The position numbers were made by a program. From positions 1 through 32,175 of the IMG/VR virus record IMGVR_UViG_2617270948_000002: 32,175 nt of DNA. One strand, given 5' to 3'. Source of the DNA: a virus (Duplodnaviria; Heunggongvirae; Uroviricota; Caudoviricetes). Position 1 is the first letter of the stretch. Each line of letters begins with the position of its first letter. Below, piece after piece: positions 759 through 3,700 of this stretch.

Positions 759-3700
759 TGACCACTACAGTGTTTTTGGCAGCCAAGAACAGGGAGTCTC
801 TGTTTGTCTGGCGGCTAAAGGTGATATGGAAATCGTGATGTCTTGGCCTAAAGTAGTTGCAACAGTTGGAGCGATTATGGTGGTAGTAGTGATCATCGCA
901 CCACCCATTTGCAAGGGTTGACGACATTATTTATCCGGCGCTATATTCTGTGCGTTGCCGCAAAATCGGCACACGGGATTGGCGTCCCGGAATACTACTC
1001 AACGCATACCGCGTTAAGCGGTTTTTTTATGCGCTAAGCACGGCTACGCCCAAATTATGGTGGGCTGTGTGAGGGCTTCTTCGGGAGCGCCGGGTTTGAG
1101 TAGCCGGTTACGCCAACCTTGCACAGTTCACCACCAGTCGATTGGCGTCGTTGGTGGTGATGGTTAACCTGATGAGGTGATACTATGACTACTCAATTAG
1201 CATTCCACAAAACGACGTTTACCCCAATTTGCCACAATAACAGAATTTGGCTTACTGCCACTGAAGTTGGTTTAGCTCTGGAATATGCGGACGATAAAGC
1301 AGTTCAGCGCATTTACTCTCGTCACTCAGATGAATTTACAGATATGATGACAAGGGTGGTCAAAGTGACCACCCCTCGTGGAATGCAGGAGTCTCGAGTA
1401 TTTAGCCTTCGCGGAGCCCATTTGATCGCCATGTTTGCACGAACTCCTGTAGCCAAAGAGTTCCGCCGCTGGGTTCTGGATATTCTCGATCGAGAAGTTC
1501 AACAATCCCCGATCACAAAACAATTCACTGATAACGAACTTTGCACACTCGCCTGGTTATGGCGAGCAAGTGATACGATGTTAATCGCCTGCCAGAACGT
1601 TACTCCACTTCTTCAGGTTGCGGAGCACCGCGAAGCCGGTCGCTTTACTTCTATCAGTCAGGAATATCCCCTGATACTCAGCAAGGCGCGAGCAATCCTT
1701 GCCAGAGAAACGGCGCATGTAAAATTCCAACCGTGGCAGGATGATAAGTGGAGCAGGGTATTGCCACATTTGCGTCAGGCTAGATTGCAATAGTTTTACA
1801 TATTAGGCGCTGAATGGATGCAAGCAGGTAGCGCACTGGGCGGCAATGATTAAGGCTTCAGATAAGCCAAGTAAGCACTGAAGAAGTTCAATGTAATCAA
1901 ATTCTCTTTATGGTATTTTCGTTAGACCCCTCATGCACTTAGATGGAAATTTGAAATGATGTATTCAGTGACTTTCGATGATACTGGACGAGTAGAAGAT
2001 ATTGAACTAGATCGTGAGGTTAGAGCCGGAGATAGACTCTCGCTTAATATTGATGGTCTTGATGGTATTTATATAGTCATGACTGTTAGCGGCCCTATCT
2101 ATGAAAATGTTTGTATGCCAATGAATATCCGGGTTCAAAAGTATTGGAAGCAATGATGTATAATCCCCTCAGATGCTCGAGGGGATTTTTATGTCAGACT
2201 GGAACATTGCAGCAAAACCGCAAAAGGAACGTGACAAGGTAAGCGTTGGCCTTGCGCTTTCAGGTGTAGCGTATAAAGAACGCCCGAACATGCCGGTTAT
2301 AGCTAAACAGGTAGCTAGAGAACAACTTGGGCATCTCCGCGAGTACTTAATGGATCGCGTCCGTTATTACCGTAAGCAGAGCATCACCTTCCAAAAGCAT
2401 CCGAACCACGCTACATAGAAATGGCAGACTTAAATGCAAGAAAATGAAAAGCAAGAGCAGCATGAAACTGAACCTCAGGATTTAGATTTTCCAGCAGAAT
2501 TTGACTCTCTGATTAATGCAAATGGAAAGATAACACCTGCATTGCTAACGGTAGTTAACCGGTATTTTTTATATTTTTCATTCTTTGAATCACTTCTTTT
2601 GGGGTGTTCTGGAAGTCAGGGGAAGAGTTCGAAATACGCAGCGAAATTGTTGGAATTCAAATTAGTTGATCTTGACGTTCTTAAGCGAACATACTTCTTT
2701 TTTGCAGACCGTTATCTGGCAGATGTAGTGAAGTTTGAAAACCTATGTGGTGATTTAGAGCATACATCGCAGAAGGCTAGGGATGAAAAAATTAAGGCCA
2801 TGCAATTAAAGACAAACGACCCTGAAATTCAGTTAGGTGTTTGTATTTTTGTTTGTTTCAGGTTGCGAAACAACCTTTTTCATGGACCAAAATGGCGTTA
2901 TTTGCTTGATGGGCAAGAGGATTTGCTCTTAATTGCCGGAAATTTTATACATTCTATTCTATTACAGGTGCCTAGTAGAGATGGCTGGGAATTCAAGAAT
3001 ATTTTAACTTCTACTGATTAGCTTTGATTTTCCATAATCAACCCGCCATAATCATGTCATCGGAGCCTGAACAACTCCGGTGACTTCTGCGCTTTGAGGG
3101 GACTCAAAGTGCAAACGACAATCAGAACACCTTTCAACCAGTCACAGATGCAGAAATGCACCTGCGATATCTTGCATCCAACGTTTGACCTCTGCGGAGG
3201 TGAAGCGTGAACCTCCCACAAGATGGCATCAAATTGCATCGCGGTAACTTCACCGCTATCGGTCAGCAGATCCAGCCTTATCTGGAAGACGGCAAATGCT
3301 TTCGCATGGTGCTTAAACCGTGGCGAGAGAGACGCAGTCTTTCCCAGAATGCACTCAGCCACATGTGGTACAGCGAAATCAGTGAATACCTCATCAGCAG
3401 GGGGAAATCGTTCGCTACCGCAGCATGGGTAAAAGATGCTCTCAAACACACATACCTCGGTTATGAAACCAAGGACCTGGTTGATGTCGTAACCGGCGAA
3501 ATCACTACTATCCAGTCATTACGCCATACCTCCGATCTTGATACCGGAGAGATGTATGTCTTCCTGTGTAAGGTTGAAGCATGGGCGATGAATATTGGCT
3601 GCCACCTGACTATTCCGCAGAGCTGCGAGTTCCAGCTGCTGCGCGACAAGCAGGAGGCGTAATGGCTACACCGCTTATTCGTGTCATGAACGGACACATC

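What the first reader, a model, noticed from the sequence alone, without database searches (positions are those of the whole stretch)
1887..2190. Self-contained promoter-gene-terminator unit for the 66-aa ORF
The 66-aa ORF (1956-2156) is preceded by a promoter-like element (ttcaat, 16-bp spacer, tatggt) and followed 7 nt after its stop by a strong intrinsic terminator (8-bp stem atcccctc/gaggggat plus T-run). That is the classic moron architecture, allowing expression from the repressed prophage. The next ATG (2191) abuts the terminator with no RBS, which raises the question of how the downstream ORFs are expressed: by read-through, an internal promoter, or not at all.
Basis: seen in the sequence. 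Interest (0 to 1): 0.5.

Follow-up and report, generated by a model that had tools for sequence, protein, structure and literature searches.

The report
Prophage mini-gene before shared terminator hairpin

Summary
The ORF (1956-2156) and the hairpin with its T-run (2162-2190) are real. The named promoter hexamers are not informative: a 7/12 match occurs once per 25 nt here.

The ORF is a genuine gene. Against a 58%-identical homologue dN/dS is 0.14, and AlphaFold gives a confident all-beta model. Its family occurs in E. coli, Klebsiella and Raoultella prophages. It lies in low-GC DNA in the variable slot between an isrK/C4-antirepressor module and ybcN. Divergent homologues share an extended -10-like motif (window TGGTATTTT, 1911-1919) 36-37 nt before the start codon.

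The hairpin is not the ORF's own. The unit TATAAT + 9-10 bp stem + GAGGGG + a spacer that is usually U-rich + ATG heads theta (HolE/P1 Hot-like) gene cassettes in about 49 different upstream contexts. Phage HK639 annotates it as a terminator. Its 3' arm is the Shine-Dalgarno sequence of ATG 2191, so "no RBS" is wrong. That ATG starts a theta homologue, which here carries a C-terminal frameshift.

Verdict: a moron-like insertion that borrows the head hairpin of its neighbour. In six of nine lineages the ORF family sits next to a theta gene or a theta remnant, in either order, which suggests a functional partnership. Transcript ends and expression are untested.

The parts
918..947 (+). Promoter-like site TTGACG-18-TATATT (10/12) in front of isrK. 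It is a possible source of read-in transcription towards the ORF.
   Evidence: Consensus scan. Position just upstream of the Rfam isrK match. The Gifsy-1 isrK promoter drives the downstream antirepressor operon (PMC4825925).
956..1138 (+). isrK-like sRNA (956-1028, with its own terminator at 1008-1022 plus T7) and C4-like antisense RNA (1053-1138).
   Evidence: Rfam matches above gathering score: 60.7 and 72.7 bits.
1185..1793 (+). Antirepressor-like gene (Bro-N + P22AR C-terminal domain), the last gene of the widely shared upstream module.
   Evidence: Pfam. The module is found in 670 E. coli genomes, and homology stops about 15 nt before its stop codon.
1887..1914 (+). It is a chance-level match.
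   Evidence: 7/12 match. Such matches occur once per 25 nt, with 8 in this intergenic region. Not conserved in homologues.
1911..1919 (+). Extended -10-like motif TGgTATTTT, the best promoter candidate for the ORF. The predicted start is near 1926, giving a leader of about 30 nt (inferred).
   Evidence: It is the only TGnTAnnnT in 1794-1955, where 0.14 are expected. Homologues L004, L213 and L210 carry TTGGCT-16-TAATGT with TG; the distance from the -10 to the start codon is 36-37 nt in the window, L004 and L213.
1940..1947 (+). Shine-Dalgarno region of the ORF (tagatgga). Homologues have taggtgg.
   Evidence: Conserved block CTTAG(G/A)TGG 8-9 nt before the start codon.
1956..2156 (+). 66-aa ORF: a real gene for a small all-beta protein of a narrow prophage family that is associated with theta genes.
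2159..2164 (+). TATAAT, present in every intact unit collected. Its last three bases start the 5' arm of the hairpin. It may be the -10 of a theta promoter (inferred, weak).
   Evidence: Constant across the intact units while the loops and 3' partners vary; the collecting patterns allowed some variation here (TACAAT occurs in L103). No conserved -35 or TG. Mutated to TCTAAT where theta is dead (L003/L005).
2162..2190 (+). Conserved hairpin (5' arm 2162-2170, loop 2171-2178, 3' arm 2179-2187) plus T-run 2186-2190. It is a terminator-like element.
   Evidence: The same unit is annotated 'terminator' in phage HK639. Stem variants are G-U wobbles or paired insertions.
2179..2184 (+). GAGGGG, the Shine-Dalgarno sequence of the theta gene, sequestered in the 3' arm 6 nt before the ATG.
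   Evidence: Read from the sequence. The same arrangement precedes theta or a 60-aa ORF plus theta in all hairpin-bearing loci.
2191..2418 (+). DNA polymerase III theta (HolE / P1 Hot) homologue, 75 aa as it reads. A 1-nt deletion near 2385 puts the last ~20 ancestral codons out of frame; the ancestral frame runs to 2447.
   Evidence: Pfam PF06440, E = 5.6e-25. PHROG 1105. NCBIfam match below cut-off. Alignment to the L213 theta gene. RefSeq marks the LR-50 copy 'frameshifted'.
2434..3021 (+). 195-aa ORF of unknown function, the third gene of the low-GC cargo block.
   Evidence: Only PHROG 27260 (unknown function) matches. No Pfam, PADLOC, NCBIfam or PDB match.

Best explanation
The window shows the early-right (nin) region of a lambdoid E. 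coli prophage. Between a widely shared isrK/C4-antirepressor module and ybcN/ninB lies a hypervariable cargo slot. Here the slot holds three low-GC genes: the 66-aa ORF, a theta (HolE/Hot-like) gene and a 195-aa ORF.

The 66-aa ORF is a real, translated gene for a small beta-barrel protein. It entered as a moron-type insertion that brought its own Shine-Dalgarno sequence and an extended -10-type promoter (TGGTATTTT, 1911-1919). It can also be reached by read-in transcription from the isrK/antirepressor promoter and, in lytic growth, from pR.

Its transcription then meets the hairpin at 2162-2190, which probably terminates a good part of unmodified transcription. That hairpin was already in place. 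It is the conserved head of the theta cassette, consisting of TATAAT, a 9-10 bp stem, GAGGGG, a spacer that is usually U-rich, and ATG. Its 3' arm is the theta ribosome-binding site. So one element both ends, or attenuates, whatever comes from upstream and keeps theta's RBS folded away.

The downstream genes are then expressed from transcripts that read through the hairpin: by leakage, or by N/put-type antitermination after induction. They may also be expressed from a -10-only promoter at the TATAAT, whose transcripts would start in the loop and leave the RBS free.

Shown: the gene is real; the hairpin unit is conserved and independent of context; the RBS lies in the 3' arm; the insertion polymorphism; the ORF-theta linkage. 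Inferred: promoter activity, termination efficiency, the route of theta expression, and any lysogen expression.
For: Context.
- Pfam and RefSeq annotation of the window and of the 99.8%-identical strain LR-50.
- The slot between the antirepressor gene and ybcN holds different cargo in other strains.
- The shared module ends about 15 nt before the antirepressor stop codon.
- GC is 0.385-0.405 across 1801-2200 against about 0.50 in the flanks.

The gene is real.
- dN/dS is 0.14, substitutions are biased to third codon positions, and the alternative frames are closed.
- 20 aligned homologues share invariant residues.
- AlphaFold gives pLDDT 90.8.

Promoter-like motif and Shine-Dalgarno sequence.
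- Both are conserved at fixed distance in homologues that are otherwise unalignable upstream.

Insertion.
- The sequence CTAAATCCCCCGCAGAACGCAAAGCCGCGCAG lies about 25 nt before the hairpin in L022/L023. In L004/L213 it lies about 310 nt before the hairpin, with the promoter motif and the ORF in between.

Hairpin unit.
- A viral-contig scan and theta-anchored loci give about 49 distinct upstream contexts with the same unit. The unit also occurs in isolated phages HK639, Klebsiella RothC/D, ST13-OXA48phi12.5 and Enterobacter CobraSix.
- Loops are essentially randomised, while TATAAT, the stems and GAGGGG are constant.
- Stem changes are U-G wobbles (HK639 type, L152, L202), a paired insertion (CCCTCTC/GAGGGGG) and its Watson-Crick version (GAGAGGG in L161). 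Mismatches occur only at the helix ends.
- HK639's depositors annotate the element as a terminator.

Transcription path.
- There is no terminator-like site between 1022 and 2162 on the + strand.

Downstream gene.
- PF06440, E = 5.6e-25.

Terminators after the ORF in other lineages.
- Classical terminators follow the ORF in L225 and L220.
Against: - There are no transcript data of any kind.
- The U-tract outside the stem is short (3-4 U, then AUGU) and the loop is large (8 nt).
- In the theta-anchored set of 27 units, 4 have no U-tract and 7 have an interrupted one. Termination therefore cannot be the only conserved function of the hairpin.
- The extended -10 motif has no -35 partner in the window. 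The three homologues that share it are related to each other, so the independent support amounts to about two lineages.
- The ORF family is habitually adjacent to theta, twice with overlapping stop and start codons. That fits co-expression better than a hard stop between the two genes.
- Theta is frameshifted or decayed in all six E. coli genomes that carry this ORF, yet the hairpin is intact in three of them. The claim that the hairpin serves theta is therefore not proven by co-decay.
Confidence: 0.6

Rival explanations
1. A fully self-contained moron (private promoter ttcaat/tatggt, gene, private strong terminator) is expressed in the lysogen and insulates everything downstream, which is then silent or needs another promoter.
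For: Low GC. Insertion polymorphism. A terminator-like hairpin lies 6 nt after the stop codon. Other members of the family are also followed directly by terminators.
Against: The named hexamers are at chance level and are not conserved. The hairpin occurs in about 49 contexts without this ORF and always in front of a theta cassette. It contains the RBS of the next gene. There is no terminator between the upstream antirepressor operon and the ORF. The ORF and theta are linked across lineages in both orders.
Confidence: 0.15
2. The hairpin unit is above all an insulated promoter for theta. TATAAT (2159-2164) is a -10 element and transcription starts in the loop (about 2171), so that the transcript has a 20-nt leader with a free GAGGGG. 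The 5' arm exists to terminate incoming transcripts and to mask the RBS on them. Theta, and not the 66-aa ORF, would then be the gene expressed on its own in the lysogen.
For: TATAAT stays constant although its potential 3' pairing partner varies widely: ATTTTTAT, ATTCTTAT, GTTTTAT, ATTATACA, ATTCATCA. The one variant seen in front of an intact theta keeps the key positions (TACAAT in L103). A purine lies 7-8 nt downstream in all variants. Relatives without the hairpin have -10-like or full promoter-like sites at the same place: L225 has TAATAT 19 nt before the ATG, and the L130 class has TTGATA-18-TAAATG. P1 hot has its own annotated promoter. TATAAT is mutated where theta is a pseudogene (L003/L005, L210).
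Against: There is no conserved -35 and no TG: the best -35 scores in 49 contexts equal those of shuffles. The discriminator CCCCTC is GC-rich. TGATGTATAAT also supplies stop codons in two frames and may simply be a recombination joint. There are no transcript data.
Confidence: 0.35
3. The ORF has no promoter of its own. It is simply the distal gene of the isrK-C4-antirepressor operon, as isrJ is in Gifsy-1, and the hairpin is that operon's terminator.
For: isrK and C4 RNAs and an antirepressor gene lie directly upstream. There is no terminator-like site between 1022 and 2162. In Gifsy-1 the isrK promoter gives a read-through transcript that covers the antirepressor gene and isrJ (PMC4825925). 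In all six E. coli genomes that carry it, the ORF follows this antirepressor gene.
Against: Homologues of the ORF sit in quite different upstream contexts without an antirepressor gene, yet keep the TGGTAATGT motif (L004, L213, L210). The antirepressor module occurs in 670 genomes, and only about 6 of them carry the ORF. A 162-nt spacer separates the two genes.
Confidence: 0.25
4. The inverted repeat works on DNA as a protein operator (AATCCCCTC-N7/8-GAGGGGATT) and not as an RNA hairpin.
For: It is a perfect 9-bp palindrome next to a -10-like hexamer.
Against: The spacer length varies between 7 and 8 nt and its sequence is random. The arm variants are G-U compatible only on the + strand RNA: they would be C-A mismatches on the other strand and asymmetric half-sites on DNA. 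The paired insertion lengthens both arms.
Confidence: 0.05

Closest known systems
Morons of lambdoid phages (HK97 gene 15, lambda bor/lom), as defined in Cumby et al. 2012 (PMC3594210)
   Same: Extra DNA compared with relatives, deviant (low) GC, a small accessory gene with a promoter-like element upstream and a terminator-like hairpin downstream, and a position between conserved phage genes.
   Different: The terminator is shared: it was already there as the head of the neighbouring theta cassette. Read-in transcription from upstream is not blocked. Expression in the lysogen is untested.
The hairpin annotated 'terminator' upstream of the theta gene in phage HK639 (NC_016158, 41560-41586), and the lambda nin-region terminators tR2-tR4 (the latter from general knowledge)
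   Same: It is the same sequence unit (TATAATCCCCTC-8 nt-GAGGGGGTTTTATG) at the same place in the nin region. It would be read through only by antiterminated polymerase.
   Different: In HK639 a 170-aa gene lies upstream and an unannotated 60-aa ORF plus theta lies downstream. No experiment on this terminator was found in the papers searched.
Bacteriophage P1 hot (theta homologue)
   Same: The downstream gene is 63.5% identical to Hot over 74 residues. Both are accessory phage copies of holE.
   Different: P1 hot has no such hairpin. It is preceded by the annotated late promoter LPhot. The window copy has a C-terminal frameshift.
Gifsy-1 isrK-orf45-anrP-isrJ locus (Hershko-Shalev et al. 2016, PMC4825925)
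   Same: An isrK-like RNA, a C4-like RNA and an antirepressor gene lie directly upstream of the ORF. In Gifsy-1, read-through of the isrK terminator gives the operon mRNA.
   Different: No isrJ match downstream of the antirepressor gene, even at E <= 10. The 66-aa ORF is not part of the described locus.
Intercistronic terminator or attenuator hairpins that also sequester the next gene's Shine-Dalgarno sequence (a general mechanism, from general knowledge)
   Same: A GC-rich stem, a U-rich tail and the SD in the 3' arm, 6 nt from the AUG.
   Different: Here the element travels with the downstream gene across many phage backgrounds and has a constant TATAAT fused to its 5' arm.

Membership tests
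Moron (independent transcription unit added to a phage genome) | Present as extra DNA between sequences that are adjacent in related phages | tested here: met
   In L022/L023 the same upstream sequence lies about 25 nt before the hairpin. In L004/L213 it lies about 310 nt before it, with the ORF in between. The slot after the antirepressor gene holds other cargo elsewhere.
Moron (independent transcription unit added to a phage genome) | [quoted passage not shown] | tested here: met
   0.385-0.405 in 1801-2200 against 0.46-0.53 in the flanking phage genes.
Moron (independent transcription unit added to a phage genome) | Own promoter | tested here: inconclusive
The extended -10-like TGGTATTTT is conserved in position in homologues. 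Activity has not been measured.
Moron (independent transcription unit added to a phage genome) | Own terminator | tested here: not met
   A terminator-like hairpin follows the ORF, but it belongs to the theta cassette and is present in about 49 contexts without the ORF.
Moron (independent transcription unit added to a phage genome) | Expressed from the repressed prophage | not testable with these tools
   Needs RNA-seq or reporter fusions in a lysogen.
Rho-independent (intrinsic) terminator | GC-rich stem with a short loop | tested here: met
   9 bp with 5 G-C pairs, and an 8-nt loop at the upper limit. About -15 to -17 kcal/mol in local context.
Rho-independent (intrinsic) terminator | U-tract directly after the stem, conserved among homologues | tested here: inconclusive
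   Window: T5, of which 1-2 are in the stem, then ATGT. Among 27 theta-anchored units, 16 have an uninterrupted run of at least 4 T, 7 have an interrupted run and 4 have none.
Rho-independent (intrinsic) terminator | Transcripts end there | not testable with these tools
   The only support is the HK639 depositors' annotation.
   7/12. Such matches occur once per 25 nt. Not listed by the scan.
DNA polymerase III theta subunit family (PF06440), for the downstream gene | Profile match above the curated cut-off | tested here: met
   87.3 bits against a cut-off of 34.6, covering profile positions 2-69 of 70. The NCBIfam subfamily model scores 80.8, below its cut-off of 97.
DNA polymerase III theta subunit family (PF06440), for the downstream gene | Intact reading frame along the full length | tested here: not met
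   A 1-nt deletion near 2385. The ancestral C-terminus is readable in another frame as far as 2447. RefSeq marks the LR-50 copy as frameshifted.
isrK / C4 antirepressor control module (upstream neighbour) | Rfam covariance-model matches above gathering score next to an antirepressor gene | tested here: met
   isrK 60.7 bits (gathering 50) and C4 72.7 bits (gathering 45). Bro-N plus P22AR_C domains.

The most novel reading that the evidence does not exclude
Two linked readings are not excluded.

(1) The 66-aa beta-barrel protein is a functional partner of phage theta homologues. It would act with theta on the host Pol III proofreading core, that is, on epsilon or an epsilon-like DEDD exonuclease. 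The family sits next to a theta gene or a theta remnant in 6 of 9 lineages, in either order, and twice with overlapping stop and start codons. In a seventh lineage it sits next to an Rv2179c-like DEDD exonuclease gene.

(2) The unit TATAAT-hairpin-GAGGGG-ATG is a compact combined terminator, promoter and RBS mask. It stops and masks incoming transcripts, while launching from inside its own loop a short-leader mRNA whose RBS is free.
Probability: 0.3. Interest if true: 0.55.

Novelty: new member of a known kind. Interest (0 to 1): 0.35.

Why it matters
As a moron-like accessory gene followed by an intrinsic-terminator-like hairpin, this is ordinary prophage architecture.

Three points are of some use:
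1. The hairpin should be annotated as a conserved cis-element of prophage theta cassettes, with the RBS in its 3' arm. It should not be annotated as the terminator of whatever gene lies upstream.
2. The repeated genomic pairing of this small protein family with theta homologues gives a testable lead on what phage theta copies are for. P1 Hot has been known for years without a clear role.
3. The slot between the antirepressor gene and ybcN is a cargo hot spot. Such units, including HEPN-type genes in other strains, are exchanged there.

Tried and rejected
- **Outer helix.** I tested whether the stop codon region TGATGTA pairs with the theta start codon, which would give stop-start coupling. The AUG is paired in 26 of 27 MFE folds. 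But with the 12 upstream nt shuffled it is paired almost as often: the fraction of shuffles reaching the observed value was 0.06-0.8 in ten of eleven contexts (0.00 in L128). I treat this as inconclusive and do not claim it.
- **Coupling by ribosome unwinding.** Upstream stop codons lie 5-18 nt before TATAAT, which is too far to open the inner stem in most contexts.
- **-35 or TG for the hairpin-adjacent TATAAT.** None is conserved.
- **isrJ or any Rfam family in 1750-2450.** Only chance-level hits.
- **Defence-system or curated family models for the 66-aa and 195-aa proteins.** Nothing found.
- **HEPN idea for the 195-aa ORF** (motif RLRNNLFH). There is no Pfam hit, no similarity to the HEPN protein in the same slot of strain RM8426, and no PDB sequence match.
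- **DNA search of the ORF region in the isolated-phage collection.** No match.
- **First pattern scan** (AATCCCCTC-N-GAGGGGATTTTT). It was too generic: most hits are unrelated terminators, and it forces the stem. Stem variation was therefore judged only on loci found through the theta or ORF proteins.
- **MAFFT alignment A3.** It puts the arm indels in inconsistent columns. Variants were tabulated from the folds instead.
- **afdb50 fold library.** Not available.
- **Literature on HK639.** Nothing on this terminator.
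Full report
**What is at the coordinates**

The ORF 1956-2156 (ATG start, 66 aa, TGA stop) is present as described. Six nucleotides after its stop codon comes an inverted repeat. Its 5' arm is AATCCCCTC (2162-2170), its loop is AGATGCTC, and its 3' arm is GAGGGGATT (2179-2187). T2186-T2190 follows, and ATG 2191 comes directly after. It is the second-best terminator-like site in the first 6 kb. The local RNA folds better than all but one of 200 shuffles, at -24 kcal/mol with z = -2.76.

Matches that good occur once per 25 nt on this strand, and eight times within the 162-nt intergenic region. 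The consensus scan did not list the site.

**Genomic setting**

The window is 99.8% identical over this region to E. coli strain LR-50. In RefSeq that region is annotated in this order: replication P, ren, an antirepressor-like gene, a hypothetical protein (our ORF), a 'DNA polymerase III subunit theta, frameshifted', a hypothetical protein, then ybcN, ninE, ybcO, rusA, ylcG, Q, holin and lysozyme. This is the nin region of a lambdoid prophage (Pfam).

Directly upstream of the antirepressor gene, Rfam finds an isrK-like sRNA (956-1028) and a C4-like antisense RNA (1053-1138). A 10/12 promoter-like site at 918-947 precedes them. This is the kind of module studied in Gifsy-1, where read-through from the isrK promoter makes the antirepressor mRNA (PMC4825925).

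That module occurs in 670 of 5,426 complete E. coli genomes. Its homology stops about 15 nt before the antirepressor stop codon. What follows, up to ybcN, differs between strains:
- an 83-aa ORF in AR_0369;
- a HEPN gene pair in O26 RM8426;
- our three genes in the window.

The block 1801-3100 has 36-44% GC, against about 50% on both sides. Only 6 genomes carry the near-identical ORF region, and 36 carry a 68%-identical version.

**The ORF is a gene**

The 68%-identical version (L004) encodes a 65-aa protein that is 58% identical. Between the two genes dN/dS is 0.14. Differences fall 20/16/38 on codon positions 1/2/3, and both other frames are full of stops.

Database searches add members from Klebsiella and Raoultella, with 13 invariant residues in 20 sequences. 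A profile search of 1.8 billion representatives finds only 27 proteins. About 21 of them are small proteins or fragments of this family, and six are large repetitive proteins that are probably spurious.

**Promoter question**

Upstream of the ORF, the window and the three divergent homologues L004, L213 and L210 are hardly alignable except for two islands.

The first island is TGGTA(A/T)T(G/T)T, an extended -10 form (TGnTAnnnT). It ends 36-37 nt before the start codon in the window, L004 and L213.

The second island is the Shine-Dalgarno block CTTAG(G/A)TGG.

The homologues also carry TTGGCT 16 nt upstream of the -10 hexamer; the window does not. TGnTAnnnT occurs once in 1794-1955, at 1911, where 0.14 are expected.

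So a promoter at this place is plausible.

Nothing terminator-like lies between 1022 and 2162. Transcription from the isrK/antirepressor promoter, or from pR, would therefore also run into the ORF.

**The hairpin belongs to the next gene**

ATG 2191 opens a 75-aa protein that matches the theta subunit family (PF06440, E = 5.6e-25; PHROG 1105). It is 63.5% identical to P1 Hot.

The 3' arm of the hairpin, GAGGGG, ends 6 nt before this ATG. The gene therefore does have a ribosome-binding site, folded into the stem.

A scan of viral contigs for the stem, followed by loci collected through the theta protein and through the ORF protein, shows the same unit in about 49 distinct upstream contexts. The unit is TATAAT, CCCCTC, a 7-8 nt loop, GAGGGG, a spacer of 2-16 nt and then ATG. 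It stands in front of theta, or in front of a 60-aa ORF that overlaps theta.

It also occurs in isolated phages: HK639, Klebsiella RothC/D, RCIP0114 and ST13-OXA48phi12.5, and Enterobacter CobraSix. The HK639 record annotates it as a terminator.

The upstream neighbours differ. They include the C-terminus of a 170-aa gene, an 11-15 codon mini-ORF (MPKSPAERKAAQ...), and other genes.

In the set that did not force the stem sequence:
- The loops are randomised.
- TATAAT and the arms are constant.
- The arm variants are U-G wobbles (HK639 type, L152, L202), a paired one-base insertion (CCCTCTC/GAGGGGG), and its Watson-Crick form in L161.
- Mismatches occur only at helix ends.

This pattern fits an RNA hairpin on the + strand. 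The number of independent changes is small.

The U-tract is uninterrupted in 16 of 27 units, interrupted in 7 and absent in 4. In L163 the stem is instead extended to 16 bp up to the AUG. Termination is therefore likely in the window's version, but it cannot be the only conserved role.

P1 hot has no such hairpin. It has an annotated late promoter instead.

**Insertion test**

In L022 and L023 the sequence CTAAATCCCCCGCAGAACGCAAAGCCGCGCAG lies about 25 nt before the hairpin. In L004 and L213 the same sequence lies about 310 nt before it, and the promoter-like motif and the 65-aa ORF sit in between.

The ORF with its upstream signals therefore behaves as a discrete addition placed in front of a hairpin that was already there. 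That meets the 'extra DNA' and 'deviant GC' criteria of a moron (definition in PMC3594210). It does not meet 'own terminator'.

In lineages where the ORF lies elsewhere, it is followed at once by a classical terminator (L225, L220). This agrees with the ORF usually being the last gene of its transcript.

**Link between the ORF and theta**

The fetched loci contain nine sequence-distinct lineages of the ORF family.
- Three have theta downstream: the window type, L004 (via the 60-aa ORF) and L213.
- One has a theta remnant downstream (L210, ATGTCGAAGTAG).
- Two have theta directly upstream with overlapping or abutting stop and start codons (L219, L225/L226).
- One has an Rv2179c-like DEDD exonuclease gene downstream (L220).
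- Two have neither. One of these is a 1.5-kb contig.

Most theta loci lack the ORF. Theta homologues are rare, found in 34 of 50,697 phage records and about 140 of 5,426 E. coli genomes. This adjacency is therefore unlikely to be accidental, and it suggests a functional partnership. It is the most interesting lead here, but it rests on gene neighbourhood alone.

**State of theta here**

A 1-nt deletion near 2385 shifts the last ~20 codons. The ancestral C-terminus (ASEPRYIEMADLNARK*) is still readable in another frame, up to 2447.

In the other E. coli genomes with this ORF, theta is more decayed:
- L002 has several frameshifts.
- L003 and L005 have a stop at codon 4.

In L003/L005 the TATAAT is TCTAAT and the stem has an A-to-T change. 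In L210 the hairpin is degenerate. In all these cases the ORF is intact.

This hints that the hairpin serves theta. However, L002 keeps a perfect hairpin, so the evidence is anecdotal.

**How downstream genes are expressed**

It is translated from transcripts that pass the hairpin, either by leakage or by antitermination after induction.

A second route is possible. The constant TATAAT fused to the 5' arm could be the -10 of a promoter that starts in the loop, giving a 20-nt leader with a free RBS.

In favour of this second route:
- TATAAT is constant even though its possible pairing partners vary.
- Hairpin-less relatives have -10-like or full promoter-like sites at the same place.
- P1 hot is a precedent for a theta gene with its own promoter.

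Against it:
- There is no conserved -35 or TG.
- The discriminator is GC-rich.

I put this second route at about 0.35.

**Verdict**

The finding is a real but ordinary piece of prophage architecture: a moron-like small gene in a cargo slot.
1. The named promoter hexamers are not informative.
2. The terminator is shared with, and belongs to, the downstream theta cassette.
3. The next gene has an RBS.

Nothing about transcription or expression has been measured.

Noticed in passing
window 956-1138 (with 918-947 and 1185-1793): Rfam finds an isrK-like sRNA and a C4-like antisense RNA above gathering score. A 10/12 promoter-like site precedes them and a Bro-N/P22AR antirepressor gene follows. This is an immI / Gifsy-1 isrK-anrP type module inside the nin region, and it is present in 670 of 5,426 E. 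coli genomes.
   Followed up: partly
L219 1783-2201; L225 2262-2692; L226 156-586; window 1956-2418; L213 3001-3495: The 66-aa protein family is adjacent to a theta homologue or a theta remnant in 6 of 9 lineages. The order is ORF then theta, or theta then ORF, and the reversed order has overlapping stop and start codons. This suggests a conserved two-gene partnership.
   Followed up: partly
L220 2501-3319 (also L221, L222): In a distant lineage (P0036) the ORF is followed by a classical terminator and then by an Rv2179c-like DEDD 3'-5' exonuclease gene, the same superfamily as the epsilon subunit that theta binds.
   Followed up: no
window about 2385; 2191-2447: The theta homologue carries a 1-nt deletion. 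Its ancestral C-terminus (ASEPRYIEMADLNARK*) is still readable in another frame, overlapping the start of the next ORF (2434). Theta is frameshifted or truncated in all six E. coli genomes that carry the 66-aa ORF.
   Followed up: yes
L022 about 9307-9355; L009, L023, L033, L145-L162 (upstream of the hairpin): A conserved 11-15 codon mini-ORF (MPKSPAERKAAQ... / MAKSAAERKSA*) ends 8-9 nt before TATAAT in many phages. It could be a leader peptide or a gene remnant. The same sequence lies upstream of the 65-aa ORF insertion in L004 and L213.
   Followed up: partly
L207 (HK639) 2319-2501: An unannotated 60-aa ORF (MSNEEMTPAEKYKAS...) lies between the annotated terminator and theta in HK639 and overlaps the theta start codon (TAATG). 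The same ORF occurs in L004, L022, L023 and CobraSix.
   Followed up: no
window 2434-3021: A 195-aa low-GC ORF contains the motif RLRNNLFH (Rx4H, HEPN-like). It has no Pfam, PADLOC, NCBIfam or PDB sequence match. The same slot in O26 strain RM8426 holds an annotated HEPN gene that shows no detectable similarity to it.
   Followed up: partly
window 9-761: An IS3-family transposase fragment (250-aa ORF starting with GTG) lies at the left end of the window, where LR-50 has phage genes (ren, hypothetical proteins). The early region is therefore probably disrupted in this strain.
   Followed up: no
L003 4357-4400; L005 4363-4406: Strains B1S11 and 2022CK differ from the window at 8 of 407 positions in 1794-2200, and 4 of the 8 fall inside the 35-nt hairpin unit: TATAAT to TCTAAT, two loop changes and a stem A-to-T change. 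This goes together with an early stop in theta.
   Followed up: partly
window 2860-2885: A weaker terminator-like site (AGGTTGCGAAACAACCT plus TTTTT) lies inside the 195-aa ORF. No other such site lies on the + strand before 5365, downstream of Q.
   Followed up: no
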